Origin: Escherichia coli
Lineage (GTDB): Bacteria; Pseudomonadota; Gammaproteobacteria; Enterobacterales; Enterobacteriaceae
Length of the DNA stretch: 64,000 nucleotides
Direction: 5' to 3' (one strand)
Assembly (NCBI RefSeq): GCF_044324875.1
Contig: NZ_CP172185.1
The notes beneath the pieces were generated by a model, which had not been told where the DNA came from, did no database searches, and was given only the letters and a program-made list of their open reading frames with translations. Position 1 is the stretch's first letter. Each line of letters starts with the position of its first letter. Shown in pieces: positions 1 through 7,445 of this stretch. The position numbers were made by a program, and so were the translations under genes.

Positions 1-1523
<1,523 letters not shown>

Positions 1524-1786
1524 GAAGGTGAATAAGTGATAGCCCAATCGCCTTTCTGCATTTCATTCACAAAGCGCCAAACCTGAGAAGCACCAGAGCG
1601 AACTGTGCCTGGCTTAGTCTGTGGCTCAAGCTCCTGATACCGGATAAACAACTGCTCTCTTGAGCATCCAGGTTTCACATAGGGAGCGAGCTGCGACCAA
1701 CCAATTGCAACAACCTGTTTGTCTCTGAAGTCGTCGTACAATTTTCCGCCATCACCGCGGATCATCCACATCTTAGTCGCCACAAT
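1524..1786 (-). pseudogene. 5' portion of the IS-interrupted ORF (N-terminus (V/M)ATKMWMIRGDGGKLYDDFRDKQVVAIGW..)
   Basis: Reverse-strand ORF with AGGA about 6 nt upstream of a GTG/ATG start near 1771-1786; protein-like sequence through about codon 85, after which the frame runs into IS-derived sequence. Confidence 0.4.
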
Positions 1787-1893
1787 AATTCCTTCTGAAA
1801 ATACTTCATCGTTATACCGGGACGTGATCATTCCATTCAGCCACCTTATCCAGGGGAAAAACACCGATAAGATGGCTAATCAAAATGTCTGTT

Positions 1894-4800
1894 CTAAACC
1901 TGACGCCTATCAAGACTATTATAAATAGCCTCAATCTCACCTTTCAGGTTATCACCAGAGTAAACCATCGATGTATCGTATCGTTCATATCGCGCTTCCC
2001 GTGTCGCACTAAACCAGTTGAACGATCCCACGCATAGCAAACCATCATCACCAATAACAATTTTGCTATGAACACGGTTTACCAGCTTTGTAGCAATACC
2101 CAGCGCATTCAGTTTCTCCAGCGCCGCTTTAAGGTTCTGCTGCTTCTCTTTTCGCTTCTCAAAATCTTTATGTTCAGTGTTATAGCTTCTGTCAGTGACT
2201 ATCGTGACGTTAATTCCACGTGAACACGCCGCAATCATGGAATCAAGAAAACCCGTTTGCTCCAGCTTTTGCCAGGTCAGCCATGGAGAAACTATCGTGA
2301 TGTGTTTATCGGTATTTTCAAACGTCTGATTCAGGAAATTATCATGCTGCTCCACACCATGGAGTGTGTAGATTTTGGTCTCGGAAGTTTTTAAATCCTT
2401 ACGCTCTTTATAATCAAAAGAGAGCGCATTCTTCTCGGACTCAAAGAGATATTTTGCCAGTAATCCCCGCGGAGATGAGGCTGGCTGGATCTCAAACAGG
2501 TCCATATCGCCGAAGACCAGGAAACTGTCCTTCGCACGGGAGACAGCAACGTTCAGCATGCTGTTATCGCTATCAATAAACCCGCCATCCTCATGCTTTG
2601 AATAGACTGGCGAGAATATAACAATCGCTCTTTCCGCCCCCTGAAGAGAATGCACGGTGCCCACGGTGAGCGACGTTTCATTCGCGCCTGTACTGATGCC
2701 TTGTTTACCCAGCGCCTGTTTGATAGTCGATACCTGCGCGCTAAAAGGCGTCACGATACCGACAACTTCATGAAGCGATTTGCCGTAATGCGCTTCAATA
2801 TCTTGCTGGTTATCTGTCAGCCAGGCAGCTATCGTTTCAGCCTCAAGCAAATTATATCGACTTCCGCTACTTGCCAGCGCTCCTTTACCATCAATATGGA
2901 GATAACCCATTGCGGGCATTAAATTGCTCTCTTCACGCCCTCTTTTAGGCAACAACTTACCGTGATAGCAGAGCGTATTACAGTATCCAATAATATTATC
3001 GAAGCACCGGCGGTGTTCATATAGGTACATACCACGAGCCAGTTCGGGATCATATTGATAGCGCGAAGCAAACTGAGCTATTTTCATAACGCTGCCAGAT
3101 GCGGCACTTTTACCAAGGTCTGCGATTGCCGTATATTTCTCGGTAATCTCTTCTTGCGTACTGCCAGACAGAATTTTTTCCGCCAGCATGTTACCGATAT
3201 CAATCGCAGGAGCAATACTCCATATTGGCGGGATCTGCTCCGTATCGCCAATCACTAATGCCTTCTTAGCTAATGCAAACGAGGCAGCAGCCACTTCAGG
3301 AAGCACCTGTCCGGCTTCATCGACAATGAGTAAATCGGCAAAATCATACAAATAACTTTTCTCGAATTTACGTTGTCCTTTGTGCTCACTTATCTGCATA
3401 TTGCCGGGCAGCATATAGCATGTCATCACCACACATGGAATGAGTTTCATTCGACGTTGCCAACGGGCAGTTACTCCTTTAGCGCCTTTTTTCTTCTTCT
3501 CTTCCTGCAGATCATCAATTCTGGCCATATCCATCAGCCAACGACCTTCCCAGTAGTGAGTCGTCAGTAAAAATGCAGGGAAGCGAATCTGCGTATCAGC
3601 CAGTTCATCGGCCTGTGAGAAGCTCAGTTCCTCGTCGCCCTCATACCCTAAATCAAGTGTCAGCCTCTGCCACTCCTGAACCGCCTGCTGTTCTTTAAGA
3701 ACGATTTCATGGGCGGAGTCAATCTGCTTCCGGTATGTTGTTTGCTCGCGTTCAGCGGAATTGAGCAGCCCATCAATATTACGTTCGATAGTTTCAGGAT
3801 CAGACCACTGATTTCCTGCAATCAGCGCGCCTAATTTATCTTCGAGAAACAGCTGTATTTGGTACTGTCGCTTATTGCGAACCGCCGGGAGCCAGGAAAA
3901 TAATGAATAGATCAGTGATTCACCGGCGCGATATTTTTTCCATTCCGTTTTAGCACTCTTCAGTAGAGTAACTTTTTGTTCTTGCCCGGAGAGTAATTTA
4001 TTTAAATTATCGAGATATTGCTCAATGTTATCAGCAATAAGCTCACGCGCCGCCCGAACCTGGCTTAACGTTTGCCATGTTGCGTTCAGTCTTATCAGTT
4101 GCTCGGATTTTGCTGCCAACTGACCATGCAGGAGTTCAATGACCTTTTCAGGGGATGAACACTCTTTTTCAGGAAAGGCTGCCTTAGCCTTCTCCAGATA
4201 AAACAGCAGTGCATCCTCTACATACTCTTTTGACTCAACCTGGTTGAAGAAATCTTCAGTTTGATATTTTTTGGCGGCCTCAGCTTTACGAGTGCTTGAG
4301 GGAAAATAAGCGCCGAAGCTTTTCAGCTCTGGCAACCATCGTCCGGCCATCGCACCGGTGCCCTGGGAAAAATCTTTCCCGAACGCCTCGATAATGTTCG
4401 TGACAGCCTGGTTATTCGTTGAGGTCGCGATAATGACCGGAGGCTCAGATTTTTCGAGAGCCGCTCGGGCCCACTGCGTGGCGATGATAGAAAGCACCAG
4501 CGTGGTTTTTCCGGTTCCCGGAGGGCCATTAACAGCAAGGATATCGCCATGTCTGGCATCCAGAAAATGGCTTAAGGCATCGCGCTGAGCCTTTGCCAGC
4601 GGAAACTTATCTCCGGAGTGTCCAAGCCTGTCGCTGAATTTTGCTCCTGGGGCCAGCAAAGACTCTGCAGCATGAACCTCTCGCGAGGCGAAGCGATTGA
4701 AGAGTGGCACATCCTTCTTGCAAACAAGCAGGTGATCATAAAGCGAAAGGATATGGAAACTGGCACCGCCAGATTGCGCCGTTTTAACAATATAACCGTG

Positions 4801-5409
4801 CTCAGCGAGTTCATATTGCTCAGGATTTTTAATCCAGTCGCCGGCAACGTTCTTCAGCAGCCTCTCTGAATCATCCAGATATTGACGCCAATCCTGCTGC
4901 AAGGCTGCATATCGTGCTTCCCGTTCTTCATCCGTTTCGGCAGTGTTATCAACGCTGTCATCAAACTTGATAGAGAATGACGTATGTGTCGTTTTATATT
5001 TGTCATACTGCTCAATCTCACCAATCGAAAATGCCCCTTTTGGCAAAGGTTCAAGCAGGTCTCTGGGAATGGAGGTCGCTGGCGTCGGGTATAAAAAACC
5101 CTCACGGCTTAGCAAGGCTGGCGTCACTAGCGGGGTAACAATATCAGGCACGCCTGCGGAACGGTCCTTACCATGCTGCAGTAACCGAAAATAAACTTTT
5201 GGGCGCAAGACGACATCGACCGTTTCGACATCGTCTTTTTCTCCCTCAAAAAATTTACTGACAATCGCTTCGTCAAGACGTCCCGCCGCTATCCCATGCC
5301 AGTGAGTGAAATTTTGGGCGTCTTTCCGTTCAAAGCTGCCCTTTCCTGACTCAGCATCCGCAAGCGAGTTGCGCCAGTATGAGGCAAACCCTAAAGCATT
5401 TTCATCCAT
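1894..5409 (-). CDS. Superfamily-1 (Upf1/DNA2-like, COG1112-type) helicase fused to a C-terminal phospholipase-D (HKD) family nuclease domain; candidate defense protein (Mokosh type II-like architecture)
   Basis: 1171-aa ORF. Walker [13 protein letters not shown]; motif [10 protein letters not shown]; motif [14 protein letters not shown]; motif [20 protein letters not shown]-terminal HKD motif [25 protein letters not shown] about 8 nt upstream of ATG. Confidence 0.85.
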
Positions 5410-5734
5410 TACCAGTCCTATGACTCAATGAAATCCATTGATTTATCGAATATAAAATCACCGTATGGATAACTATTGTCCACGTTGAAAGGCTGGCTGC
5501 AATGTTTTGTTCACGCTTCGATACAAATACTCAGGTTATACGGAGTTCAGAAAACGACCATATCATGCTGCATGGCACATAAAAGCTTTATAACCGAAGC
5601 AGCAAAGGATTACCGGCTGCGCAGCACGCCACGAAAGCCCGTGAGCTCTACTGGACAGCGTTCAGTGCAATATTGGAGTCTGTAAGTCCAGAAAATATCA
5701 CTGTCGAAGATGGTTCTGTATGTAGGTGCGCCAG

Positions 5735-6112
5735 CTATTGTTTTGTCCGATGCTTGCGAATAAAAGCATTCAAAATGTCGCCTTCACCATGCATGACAGA
5801 AAAAGAATATTCACATTCTTTCTTTATCAAGATTCCACATAATTCCTTGTGCAAATCTACATTAACTCCCTTTCCTTTCTGTGCTTTCTTCACACCGAGC
5901 TCACATGAACTGATTAATTCAACGTTACAGGGTTTCTTCAAATAATTCACACCATCAATTAAGCCCTGGAGAATGCATCTATTTGCGGTCGTATTACTGT
6001 AGGAGAAGGTCAGATATTTTATTTTCCCTTCACATTCCAGCACAACTTCCGCCGAACCTTCACGTGTTGCAGCATCACAACTTCCTGTTGAATATATTTT
6101 CACCATCTTCAT
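5735..6112 (-). CDS. Small RNase HI-like fold protein with substituted catalytic residues (predicted inactive pseudo-RNase H)
   Basis: 125-aa ORF; by-eye alignment to E. coli RNase HI: VKIYSTGSCD vs VEIFTDGSCL, NTTANRCILQG vs RTTNNRMELMA, VELISSCELG vs VILSTDSQYV, VNVDLHKEL..HGEGD vs KNVDLWQRL..HAGHPENERCD, with the DEDD positions replaced. Strong SD (GGGGAAAGG) upstream. Confidence 0.55.
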   Translation of the reverse strand: MKMVKIYSTGSCDAATREGSAEVVLECEGKIKYLTFSYSNTTANRCILQGLIDGVNYLKKPCNVELISSCELGVKKAQKGKGVNVDLHKELCGILIKKECEYSFSVMHGEGDILNAFIRKHRTKQ

Positions 6113-6180
6113 TTTGTACCTTTCCCCTTACCAAACGAATCATGACATCCTATATCAAAGGCATTCTCGTCAAAACTTTA

Positions 6181-6960
6181 CTATCTCAGTAAATTCTCCC
6201 GATGCCACTCCAGATAACAATACGATTCAACAGAAAACGCCTTTATTTTCTCCGGCAACAAACATTGCTCTTTAACGCTAATATCCAGCTCCTTACTAAT
6301 TAATAAATGCCCATCGTTCTCAAACGAAATCCATCCCTGATCGAATAGAATATCAATATGCGCAGCCAATATAATTCCATTAAAAGGATCAAGACGTTCA
6401 TTTCCATTCTCGCAGGCAGCCCACGGCTTTATATGGCTGGCACGCAGTAAAGGTGCAAAAGTCGTTCCCGTAACAGGGCATGCCGGATACAACATGAGAC
6501 AATTTTTCCGAAAGGTACCTTGCCCCAGCCGTGCCGCAATCAGCTGCTCGCGTACGGTATCTTCAATACTTTTATCCTGCTGAATAGCAAGACAGTCACG
6601 TTGTGCCTGTTCATCTCTATCAGTCGATATTAACGAAAGAACGCGCTGCTCAATTGCACTATCAGAAAGCACACTCAATCGCTGATGAACACGCTGCGCT
6701 GAATGAGAAAGCGCAGCAGGAGCACCCTGCTCGTCACGCCAACCGACACGCACATCACTAAGCCAGGAATCAAAACGGTCACGACTATTTTTCAGACTAT
6801 TGTGAAACTCGCTGGCAGTTTTGCCCGCTCCAAATCGAGGATAAAACAAGGCAAAAGCCTCTTTCCATTTCTGAACACCCAGTCCTGCGGGTGGTTGAGA
6901 GTTACCATACTTCGACAAATACCACGCCACTTCAAGCAAATCGTCTTCAGAGCTATTCAA
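6181..6960 (-). CDS. HNH-family endonuclease (259 aa); apparent TTG start
   Basis: C-terminal HNH motif ..LRASHIKPWAACENGNERLDPFNGIILAAHIDILFDQGW..; frame is open only back to a TAA at 6988-6990 and the first plausible start is TTG at 6958-6960 with AGGA 7 nt upstream; no in-frame ATG near the N-terminus. Confidence 0.7.
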   Translation of the reverse strand: MNSSEDDLLEVAWYLSKYGNSQPPAGLGVQKWKEAFALFYPRFGAGKTASEFHNSLKNSRDRFDSWLSDVRVGWRDEQGAPAALSHSAQRVHQRLSVLSDSAIEQRVLSLISTDRDEQAQRDCLAIQQDKSIEDTVREQLIAARLGQGTFRKNCLMLYPACPVTGTTFAPLLRASHIKPWAACENGNERLDPFNGIILAAHIDILFDQGWISFENDGHLLISKELDISVKEQCLLPEKIKAFSVESYCYLEWHRENLLR

Positions 6961-7360: not shown

Positions 7361-7445
7361 TGGTGCCGAAGGCCGGACTCGAACCGGCACGTATTTCTAC
7401 GGTTGATTTTGAATCAACTGCGTCTACCGATTTCGCCACTTCGGC
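7361..7445 (-). tRNA. leuX: tRNA-Leu (anticodon CAA)
   Basis: Reverse complement reads GCCGAAGTGGCGAAATCGGTAGACGCAGTTGATTCAAAATCAACCGTAGAAATACGTGCCGGTTCGAGTCCGGCCTTCGGCACCA: cloverleaf with CAA anticodon loop, long variable arm, encoded CCA. Confidence 0.92.

What the first reader, a model, noticed from the sequence alone, without database searches (positions are those of the whole stretch)
5735..6112. RNase HI-like small protein with all DEDD catalytic positions substituted
The 125-aa product aligns by eye along the whole length of E. coli RNase HI, yet the residues at the four catalytic carboxylate positions are replaced (TDGSC to STGSC, E48 to I, STDS to ISSC, D134 region altered). An RNase H fold that binds but cannot cut RNA:DNA hybrids could act as a sensor or specificity subunit for the adjacent nucleases.
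Basis: partly seen in the sequence, partly recalled or inferred. Interest (0 to 1): 0.75.

Follow-up and report, generated by a model that had tools for sequence, protein, structure and literature searches.

The report
Catalytically dead RNase HI look-alike
A small, well-conserved E. coli gene in a phage-defence island encodes a protein with the shape of the RNA-cutting enzyme RNase HI but none of its cutting residues, and it belongs to an undescribed family carried by plasmids and genomic islands that probably binds nucleic acid without cleaving it.

Summary
Window 5735-6112 (- strand) encodes a 125-aa protein that is a true RNase HI homologue (NCBIfam RNase HI E=2.3e-11; PDB E. coli RNase HI E~1e-5; AlphaFold pLDDT 95.4; Foldseek top hits E. 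coli RNase HI, TM 0.76). It has T9/I47/S69 at D10/E48/D70, no acid at D134, and lacks the basic protrusion. It is not a relic: dN/dS is 0.17 over 10 alleles. It belongs to a family of about 240 cluster representatives. In 132 family domains the DEDD positions are almost never acidic. The conserved polar residues match RNase HI T43, N45, R46 and N100, on its substrate-binding face.

It sits between a VcaM4I-like HNH endonuclease and a type II Mokosh gene (MkoC), but neither needs it. MkoC stands alone in about 700 E. coli genomes. HNH orthologues in Salmonella and Yersinia have no such neighbour. Homologues lie on Pantoea and Klebsiella plasmids beside rep genes, PLD-Nuc, DUF1173 and SRAP. Others are fused to GIY-YIG, DUF559, a primase zinc ribbon or the RNase H1 hybrid-binding domain.

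Best reading: an autonomous, mobile-element-borne, non-catalytic nucleic-acid binder, probably of RNA:DNA hybrids. What it does in the cell is unknown. I found no paper describing it. New variant of a known kind; moderate interest.

The parts
5735..6112 (-). Gene for the 125-aa catalytically dead RNase HI-like protein (dRNH). Annotated in RefSeq as WP_000784771.1 'hypothetical protein', or for other alleles 'ribonuclease H family protein'.
   Evidence: ORF. RNase HI homology. Fold. DEDD positions substituted. dN/dS 0.17, all 18 sampled copies intact. RefSeq names.
6113..6180 (-). 68-bp spacer between the HNH stop codon and the dRNH start. It carries a Shine-Dalgarno-like AAGGGGAAAGG (about 6119-6129). 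No terminator-like or promoter-like site was found, so co-transcription with the HNH gene is possible (inferred).
   Evidence: Sequence. Promoter and terminator scan.
5410..5734 (-). 325-bp spacer between dRNH and mkoC. Only the 120-150 bp next to mkoC are shared with loci where mkoC stands alone, so the cassette boundary lies inside this spacer. It holds no credible ORF and no unusual RNA structure.
   Evidence: Alignment with mkoC-only loci. ORFs. Fold z-score 0.06. No Rfam hit.
6181..6960 (-). Context, not a demonstrated partner: a 259-aa HNH_2 endonuclease. Its C-terminal half resembles the HNH domain of PDB 6yex; its N-terminal ~120 aa match no known domain.
   Evidence: Pfam HNH_2 E=4.3e-12. 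PDB 6yex E=1.5e-28 over residues 123-258. PADLOC HNH. Orthologues lack dRNH.
1894..5409 (-). Context, not a demonstrated partner: a 1171-aa MkoC (type II Mokosh), combining a Upf1-like helicase with a PLD nuclease.
   Evidence: PADLOC MkoC E=0, 1688 bits, full length. Occurs alone in most E. coli carriers. Described as a single-gene system (bioRxiv 10.1101/2022.05.11.491447).
7361..7445 (-). tRNA-Leu(CAA) (leuX), the attachment site of the island. An integrase remnant is annotated between it and the HNH gene in related genomes.
   Evidence: ARAGORN. Rfam. RefSeq annotation of the same locus.

Best explanation
The gene encodes a stand-alone pseudo-enzyme. It has the RNase HI fold, but all four metal-binding carboxylates are replaced and the basic protrusion is deleted. 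It therefore cannot perform two-metal hydrolysis.

It is under purifying selection and belongs to a family spread on plasmids, a Tn7-like element's cargo region and integrative islands. It is an autonomous module. In this window it was brought next to two self-sufficient defence genes (a VcaM4I-like HNH endonuclease and type II Mokosh MkoC) by island mosaicism. It is not an obligate subunit of either.

The most likely mechanism is inferred, not shown. It still docks on nucleic acid, most probably RNA:DNA hybrids or R-loop-like intermediates, through the retained DNA-phosphate pocket and groove residues. It would then act without cutting: occupying or shielding the hybrid from host RNase HI, or marking it for other enzymes.

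Shown here: gene, fold, loss of catalytic residues, selection, family, independence from its neighbours. Inferred: nucleic-acid binding and what follows from it.
For: Fold and homology.

Catalytic residues absent across the family: 127 of 135 domains have none of D/E/D, and acidic fractions are 0.02/0/0.015/0-0.11.

Selection: dN/dS 0.17, against 0.15 for HNH and 0.08 for MkoC, with 18 of 18 copies intact. Homologues at 40-59% identity keep the length and motifs.

Retained binding face: the polar residues among the best-conserved positions are T42, N44, R45, N84 and D86, aligned with RNase HI T43, N45, R46, N100 and D102. [quoted passage not shown] T43 is a DNA contact (PMC4005664). Family median pI is 9.1, and 85% of members are above 8.

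Fusions with nucleic-acid modules: Cauli_VI hybrid-binding domain, GIY-YIG, DUF559, DnaG zinc ribbon, GreA/B C-terminal domain.

Autonomy: MkoC in 840 genomes against dRNH in 142, with MkoC alone beside an integrase and a cassette boundary in the spacer. HNH orthologues occur without dRNH. dRNH homologues occur without either neighbour.

Mobile-element carriage: 14 plasmids of Pantoea, Klebsiella, unclassified Enterobacteriaceae, Pseudomonas and Butyrivibrio, sited beside RepB, IncFII RepA, PLD-Nuc, SRAP, umuDC and DUF1173. One is in the cargo region of a Tn7-like element. GC is 0.39-0.42 against 0.53-0.56 in the flanking core genome.
Against: No binding was measured.

Loss of the basic protrusion removes a major affinity element of E. 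coli RNase HI (own knowledge), and N44 of RNase HI is Ala here.

The mapping of N84 to the N100 pocket residue rests on alignment plus my recollection of the human RNase H1-hybrid structure. I could not retrieve that paper.

No single conserved genomic partner or context emerged that would point to a cellular role.

Within the E. coli lineage the gene is always linked to mkoC. A degraded metagenome contig keeps the HNH-dRNH-MkoC trio at lower identity. An accessory role for Mokosh is therefore not excluded.

The Klebsiella oxytoca copy is N-terminally truncated while mkoC stays intact. The gene is thus dispensable in at least one lineage.
Confidence: 0.5

Rival explanations
1. One reading: the dead RNase H is a sensor or specificity subunit that recognises RNA:DNA hybrids and directs or licenses a neighbouring nuclease (the HNH protein and/or MkoC). 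Together they would form a multi-gene defence system.
For: It lies 68 bp downstream of the HNH gene on the same strand, with no terminator predicted between them. HNH (144 genomes) and dRNH (142) have nearly equal prevalence in E. coli. dRNH and mkoC are always adjacent in the E. coli lineage, and the trio recurs in a more divergent contig.

Across the family, the gene just upstream or the fused domain is often a nuclease-fold protein. Examples are PLD-Nuc at 40 bp, DUF1173 at 42 bp (PD-(D/E)XK-like per PMC3045609), T5orf172, and GIY-YIG or DUF559 fusions. In Desulfosporosinus a UvrD-like helicase lies 190 bp upstream.
Against: Both neighbours occur commonly without it: MkoC, which is a single-gene system, and HNH orthologues in Salmonella and Yersinia. 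The MkoC proteins with and without it are about 96% identical.

The equal E. coli prevalence reflects one island lineage, not independent co-occurrence.

Many homologues have no adjacent nuclease: they sit downstream of RepB, or next to toxin-antitoxin genes.

No PADLOC model includes it.

The K. oxytoca copy is truncated beside an intact mkoC.
Confidence: 0.2
2. It is a mobile-element replication or maintenance factor. By binding but not cutting R-loops or RNA primers, it would antagonise host RNase HI locally, stabilising priming or origin opening of the plasmid or island. Alternatively it would modulate processing of ribonucleotides in DNA. Its presence in the E. coli defence island would be cargo left from a mobile element.
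For: Homologues in several divergent plasmid lineages lie 0.5-2 kb from replication initiator genes. These include RepB in Pantoea, a copy convergent with IncFII repA across the expected origin region, and a ParAB/Rep plasmid contig. They sit among DNA-metabolism accessory genes: umuDC, a pol III theta homologue, a 3'-5' exonuclease and an SRAP peptidase. One family member is fused to a primase zinc ribbon.

RNase HI is known to process or remove replication-relevant hybrids (established knowledge).
Against: Proximity to rep genes may only reflect the compact accessory region of plasmids. The E. coli copy is chromosomal, with no replication genes nearby. No origin-like repeats were examined. 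There is no experimental link.
Confidence: 0.2
3. The fold has been repurposed for protein binding rather than nucleic-acid binding. It could be an inhibitor or immunity protein for a nuclease, or an anti-defence decoy carried by plasmids.
For: It is often adjacent to nuclease-fold genes of unrelated families. It is carried on plasmids. It is small and stands alone. The former active-site positions are variable (position 9 is R, T, I or V), so they are not under specific constraint.
Against: The conserved polar residues are those of the RNase HI substrate face, not a new surface. The family is basic. Fusions are to nucleic-acid-binding or -cutting domains within one polypeptide, which is unusual for an inhibitor. 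No PADLOC or PHROG anti-defence family matches; the only PHROG hit is 'RNase H'.
Confidence: 0.1
4. It is a decaying, non-functional remnant of an rnhA-like gene.
For: All catalytic residues are lost. It is truncated in K. oxytoca and in one other contig. Some RefSeq records annotate it as hypothetical.
Against: dN/dS is 0.17 and 18 of 18 E. coli-type copies are intact. A 240-representative family keeps its length and motifs down to about 30% identity. The structure model is confident. The domain is reused in fusions and tandem duplications.
Confidence: 0.03

Closest known systems
E. coli ribonuclease HI (RnhA; Pfam PF00075, NCBIfam NF001236)
   Same: Same fold and order of secondary-structure elements; Foldseek TM 0.76 and about 25% identity. 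Shares the GSC motif, the TT-N-R motif at the start of helix A, N100/D102 equivalents and a basic character.
   Different: D10, E48, D70 and D134 are all non-acidic. The aC helix and basic protrusion (about 17 residues) are deleted. N44 is Ala. It scores 43.5 bits against a 160-bit family cutoff. It is carried by mobile elements rather than being a housekeeping gene.
Engineered catalytically dead RNase H used as an R-loop or hybrid probe (for example human RNase H1 D210N) - own knowledge
   Same: The concept is the same: an RNase H fold that binds hybrids but cannot cut.
   Different: [quoted passage not shown] This is a natural, diverged family with all four carboxylates replaced. Its binding is untested.
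Natural pseudo-RNase H folds: the HIV-1 RT connection subdomain, the Prp8 RNase H-like domain, and the inactive PIWI domain of short prokaryotic Argonautes (own knowledge)
   Same: RNase H-like folds that lost catalysis and serve as nucleic-acid-binding or scaffold modules. Short pAgos also sit in defence islands and pair with effector nucleases.
   Different: These belong to other branches of the RNase H-like superfamily and are domains of larger proteins or complexes. This protein is a minimal, stand-alone, type-1 RNase HI derivative.
Type II Mokosh (MkoC)
   Same: It lies immediately next to mkoC in this island. Mokosh was proposed to sense RNA or RNA/DNA intermediates.
   Different: Mokosh II is defined as a single gene. 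dRNH matches no PADLOC model and is absent from about 700 of 840 E. coli MkoC loci.
HNH endonuclease of PDB entry 6yex (VcaM4I, an EVE-HNH modification-dependent restriction enzyme; the name and function are my recollection, the PDB table says only 'HNH endonuclease')
   Same: The neighbouring 259-aa protein shares its HNH domain (E=1.5e-28). Such enzymes are self-contained, with a sensor domain and a nuclease in one chain.
   Different: This concerns the neighbour, not the finding. The neighbour's N-terminal domain is unrelated by sequence to the EVE domain. Its orthologues do not carry dRNH.

Membership tests
Type-1 RNase H (RNase HI, PF00075 / NF001236) | RNase H fold: a five-stranded mixed sheet with the order b1-b2-b3-aA-b4-aB-aD-b5-aE | tested here: met
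   AlphaFold2 pLDDT 95.4 with this element order. Foldseek top 50 hits are all type-1 RNase H, TM up to 0.78.
Type-1 RNase H (RNase HI, PF00075 / NF001236) | Profile score above the curated family threshold | tested here: not met
   NF001236 scores 43.5 bits against a 160-bit cutoff, matching only residues 1-69. Pfam RNase_H scores 24.1 bits, E=4.4e-5, for residues 3-76.
Type-1 RNase H (RNase HI, PF00075 / NF001236) | Four conserved carboxylates (D10, E48, D70, D134 in E. coli) that bind the two catalytic metal ions | tested here: not met
   T9, I47, S69 and I118/R119 in this protein. Acidic fraction is 0.02 or less at the first three positions and 0.11 or less at the fourth, in 132 family domains.
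Type-1 RNase H (RNase HI, PF00075 / NF001236) | DNA phosphate-binding pocket at the N-terminus of helix A (T43 and N100 in E. coli numbering) | tested here: met
   T42 is conserved in 105 of 132 domains (plus Ser) and N84 in 128 of 132, aligned to T43 and N100. Pocket location from PMC4132731 and T43 contact from PMC4005664. The role of N100 is from my own knowledge.
Type-1 RNase H (RNase HI, PF00075 / NF001236) | [quoted passage not shown] | not testable with these tools
   Needs an enzyme assay. It is predicted absent from the loss of all metal ligands.
Type II Mokosh defence system | The protein matches a system component model | tested here: not met
   PADLOC finds 0 families for the 125-aa protein, while the neighbour matches MkoC over its full length.
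Type II Mokosh defence system | Consistent co-occurrence with MkoC | tested here: not met
   MkoC at 80% coverage or more is in 840 E. coli genomes; dRNH is in 142. MkoC-only loci were inspected. Distant dRNH homologues lack MkoC.
Two-gene HNH + accessory module | The accessory gene is conserved next to orthologues of the HNH protein in other genera | tested here: not met
   The Salmonella (65% identity) and Yersinia (59%) orthologues are followed after 65-115 bp by convergent genes, with no dRNH.
Modular nuclease-associated nucleic-acid-binding domain | The domain is found fused in one polypeptide with nuclease or nucleic-acid-binding domains | tested here: met
   Pfam on 35 multidomain members at E<=0.001 (E<=0.1 in brackets): GIY-YIG 2 (3), Cauli_VI 1 (2), DUF559 1, Zn_ribbon_DnaG 1, GreA_GreB 1. 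PHROG primase hits for P0035.
Modular nuclease-associated nucleic-acid-binding domain | Direct binding to nucleic acid | not testable with these tools
   Only indirect support: the conserved substrate-face residues and basic pI.

The most novel reading that the evidence does not exclude
The family is a natural RNA:DNA-hybrid reader: an RNase HI that evolved into a non-cutting sensor. Mobile elements and defence islands would plug it into different effectors (HNH, PLD, GIY-YIG and PD-(D/E)XK nucleases, Upf1- or UvrD-like helicases). It would either trigger attack on invaders that expose hybrids, or shield the element's own replication hybrids from host RNase HI. In this island it would tune Mokosh and/or the HNH enzyme towards RNA/DNA replication intermediates.
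Probability: 0.2. Interest if true: 0.75.

Novelty: new variant of a known kind. Interest (0 to 1): 0.5.

Why it matters
RNase HI is among the best-studied nucleases, and laboratories mutate it deliberately to obtain hybrid-binding probes. A natural, selected and widespread family that has done the same thing, riding on plasmids and defence islands, would show that bacteria or their mobile elements use hybrid recognition without cleavage as a function in its own right.

That bears on three questions: how defence systems such as Mokosh sense RNA/DNA intermediates, how plasmids manage R-loops and primers in the face of host RNase HI, and whether compact natural R-loop binders could serve as tools.

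It also corrects annotation. 'Ribonuclease H family protein' in RefSeq implies an activity that this protein almost certainly lacks.

Tried and rejected
- PADLOC on the small protein found no family. PHROGs gave only the generic 'RNase H' phrog_531. Pfam gave no RVT_3 or other family.
- The word-indexed protein search found only 11 close relatives. The exhaustive representative search was needed to reveal the family.
- Scanning viral contigs with the family motif found no relatives. tblastn against phage genomes found only ordinary RNase H genes and a few weak hits. The family is therefore not typically phage-borne.
- The species-representative genome scan gave only 3 loci.
- I searched for a conserved partner gene across about 14 independent contexts. 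No single partner emerged.
- The idea that it is part of Mokosh was rejected.
- The idea that it is an obligate HNH partner was rejected.
- I looked for a hidden feature in the dRNH-mkoC spacer and found none: no ORF, no RNA structure, no Rfam hit.
- Literature searches for a described dead RNase HI family, or for an RNase H link to Mokosh, found nothing relevant.
- I could not retrieve the primary paper for the human RNase H1 phosphate-pocket residues.
- I did not run a second structure prediction, such as a complex with HNH or MkoC. The tool folds single chains only, and no paired alignment was available.

Full report
**Setting.** The window is Escherichia coli chromosome around tRNA-Leu(CAA) (leuX, 7361-7445, - strand). 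The conserved genes ahr, yjgR, lptG, lptF and pepA lie to the right. To the left of the tRNA lies an integrated island, all on the - strand.
- In related genomes an integrase remnant is annotated next to the tRNA.
- A 259-aa HNH endonuclease lies at 6181-6960.
- The 125-aa ORF of the finding lies at 5735-6112.
- A 1171-aa protein lies at 1894-5409. It matches the PADLOC model of MkoC, the single protein of type II Mokosh, over its whole length (E=0, 1688 bits).
- An Mrr-like restriction endonuclease is cut by an IS621-type IS110 element at 340-1320.
- In uninterrupted relatives the island continues with a TIR-domain gene and a type I restriction-modification system.

It is a typical defence island. 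About 140 of 5426 complete E. coli genomes carry this arrangement.

**The observation.**
- Sequence profiles identify it as an RNase HI relative. NCBIfam ribonuclease HI gives E=2.3e-11, Pfam RNase_H gives E=4.4e-5, and E. coli RNase HI chains in the PDB give E about 1e-5.
- The significant sequence match covers only the N-terminal 70 residues. There the alignment is ungapped, so T9, I47 and S69 fall on D10, E48 and D70.
- An AlphaFold2 model built on 41 family sequences is very confident (pLDDT 95.4, pTM 0.88) and has the RNase H order of strands and helices.
- Foldseek returns E. coli RNase HI and other type-1 RNases H as its 50 best PDB hits. TM-scores reach 0.78 and alignments span 120-144 columns, so homology runs along the whole chain.
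- Relative to E. coli RNase HI, about 17 residues are missing: helix C and the basic protrusion. The D134 position is I118/R119.

**It is a family, not an accident.**
- An exhaustive HMMER search of 1.84 billion cluster representatives found 240 proteins at E<=0.001 and 59 at E<=1e-10.
- I extracted 135 domains from the 150 listed hits, after setting aside the query and its near-identical copies. Of these, 127 have none of D, E, D at the three N-terminal catalytic positions. The few exceptions include ordinary active RNases H at the bottom of the list.
- In 132 family domains the acidic fraction is 0.02 at the D10 position, 0.00 at E48 (I, M, L or V instead), 0.015 at D70 and at most 0.11 at D134.
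- Among the positions conserved in at least 65% of members, the polar ones are T42, N44, R45, N84 and D86 (plus K32, K59 and K81). The first five align with RNase HI T43, N45, R46, N100 and D102.
[quoted passage not shown] T43 is described as a DNA contact in E. coli RNase HI (PMC4005664). The role of N100 is my own recollection of the human RNase H1-hybrid structure; I could not retrieve that paper.
- The family is basic, with median pI 9.1.

The chemistry is gone but the docking surface looks preserved.

**It is a working gene.** Ten distinct alleles from 18 E. coli-type loci are all intact. They give dN/dS = 0.17, similar to the HNH gene (0.15) and somewhat higher than mkoC (0.08). Homologues at 40-59% identity in other genera keep the same length. 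The region has GC 0.39-0.42 against 0.53-0.56 in the flanking core genes, so it is foreign DNA. RefSeq calls it 'hypothetical protein' or, for some alleles, 'ribonuclease H family protein'.

**Is it a subunit of its neighbours?** For MkoC the answer is no.
- mkoC at 80% coverage or more is in 840 E. coli genomes, whereas the small gene is in 142.
- In the loci I opened, mkoC sits directly beside an integrase at tRNA-Phe, encoding a protein about 96% identical to the one here.
- The DNA shared upstream of mkoC between the two contexts is only about 120-150 bp. The cassette boundary therefore falls inside the 325-bp spacer.
- Mokosh type II was defined and tested as a single gene (bioRxiv 10.1101/2022.05.11.491447).

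For the HNH gene the local picture first looked favourable. It lies 68 bp upstream on the same strand with no predicted terminator, and it occurs in 144 genomes against 142. All of that is one island lineage, however.
- Full-length orthologues of the HNH protein in Salmonella (65% identity) and Yersinia intermedia (59%) are followed within 65-115 bp by convergent genes. There is no small RNase H-like gene.
- The HNH domain is homologous to that of PDB 6yex (E=1.5e-28). I recall that entry as the EVE-HNH modification-dependent endonuclease VcaM4I, a self-contained enzyme type.
- One metagenomic E. coli-type locus has lost the HNH gene but keeps the small gene (L035). The Klebsiella oxytoca version keeps mkoC but has an N-terminally truncated small gene (L044).

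Both neighbours are therefore independent of it. Its linkage to them in E. coli is best explained by descent of one mosaic island.

**Where else the family lives.**
- tblastn finds full-length homologues (31-49% identity, at least 80% of the query) on 14 plasmids of Pantoea, Klebsiella, unclassified Enterobacteriaceae, Pseudomonas and Butyrivibrio.
- In Pantoea plasmids the gene lies 0.5-0.6 kb downstream of a RepB-family initiator, near umuDC. In another it is convergent with IncFII repA.
- In Klebsiella and Enterobacteriaceae plasmids it follows a small PLD (Nuc/DrmC-like) nuclease by 40 bp and precedes an SRAP peptidase gene.
- In another enterobacterial lineage it follows a DUF1173 gene by 42 bp. 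DUF1173 is a PD-(D/E)XK-like fold without the active-site signature (PMC3045609).
- Elsewhere it sits next to a T5orf172 gene, next to a UvrD-like helicase in Desulfosporosinus, in the cargo region of a Tn7-like element, or beside toxin-antitoxin genes.
- Multidomain members fuse it to GIY-YIG, DUF559, a DnaG zinc ribbon, a GreA/B C-terminal domain, or the RNase H1 N-terminal hybrid-binding domain. Many are tandem duplications.
- Phage collections hold essentially none.

The common thread is mobile elements and enzymes that work on nucleic acids. There is no fixed partner.

**Mechanism.** Without the four carboxylates the two-metal mechanism of RNase H cannot operate; this follows from established knowledge of the family. 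The preserved pocket residues, the positive charge and the fusions (especially to the hybrid-binding domain and to nucleases) make a non-catalytic nucleic-acid-binding role the best-supported reading. RNA:DNA hybrids are the most likely ligand. What binding achieves is open.
- It could shield hybrids or primers from host RNase HI to help a mobile element replicate. The positions next to rep genes favour this.
- It could flag hybrids for associated nucleases or helicases. The fusions and several neighbourhoods favour this, as does the proposal that Mokosh senses RNA/DNA intermediates.
- I rate a protein-binding inhibitor role lower, because the conserved residues are the ancestral substrate face.
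- A pseudogene is excluded by selection and family conservation.

**Comparison and novelty.** It works like a natural version of the engineered dead RNases H used as R-loop probes. It resembles in principle other pseudo-RNase H folds, such as the RT connection domain, the Prp8 domain and the inactive PIWI of short Argonautes (own knowledge). It is not a member of RNase HI in the functional sense: the catalytic residues were tested and are not met, and the score is far below the curated cutoff. It is not a component of Mokosh. I found no paper describing the family. I rate it a new variant of a known kind. A specialist would find a conserved, mobile, dead RNase HI family interesting but not shocking, and its role is untested: interest 0.5.

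Noticed in passing
window 340-1320 (-) and 1418-1864 (-): An IS110-family transposase, annotated as IS621 family in the matching RefSeq locus, has inserted into an Mrr-like restriction endonuclease (PADLOC PDC-S02). Only a 148-aa N-terminal fragment of that gene is left. In uninterrupted genomes the gene is about 330 aa.
   Followed up: partly
window 1894-5409 (-); E. coli K-12 yjhR: The N-terminal third of mkoC matches K-12 yjhR at about 70% nucleotide identity in more than a thousand genomes. The K-12 'helicase YjhR' therefore looks like a diverged or truncated Mokosh type II relative.
   Followed up: no
window 6181-6960 (-); L062/L063 5001-5780: The N-terminal ~120 aa of the HNH protein match no known domain. 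The same N-terminal segment (92% nucleotide identity) occurs as a truncated HNH pseudogene in an ICE-like region of about 100 other E. coli genomes. In Yersinia intermedia the orthologue sits 34 bp after the PLD gene of a DISARM-like helicase-MZB-PLD operon, in an island beside lptF/lptG, the same chromosomal neighbourhood as here.
   Followed up: partly
proteins P0071, P0058, P0014 and similar: Some relatives are tandem arrays: a dead plus an active RNase H domain in one chain (P0071), the hybrid-binding domain followed by two dead domains (P0058), or two dead domains (about a dozen 270-290-aa proteins). This suggests dimer-like use of the fold.
   Followed up: no
L044 6070-6378; protein P0003 (Klebsiella oxytoca, seen on 352 contigs): The Klebsiella oxytoca copy starts at residue 24 (MLECEGK...), so it lacks strand b1, yet it sits beside an intact mkoC and an intact Mrr-like gene. 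It is probably a decayed copy.
   Followed up: partly
window 5735-6112 versus its neighbours: Synonymous divergence among alleles of the small gene (mean dS 0.09) is about half that of the flanking HNH and mkoC genes (0.19-0.20). This may be noise in a short gene or a different recombination history.
   Followed up: no
L003, L026, L027 (Pantoea plasmids): The plasmid homologues lie close to plasmid-borne umuDC. Pol V is known to incorporate ribonucleotides that RNases H help remove (PMC3493448, seen). A link between a dead RNase H and pol V mutagenesis is conceivable but was not examined.
   Followed up: no
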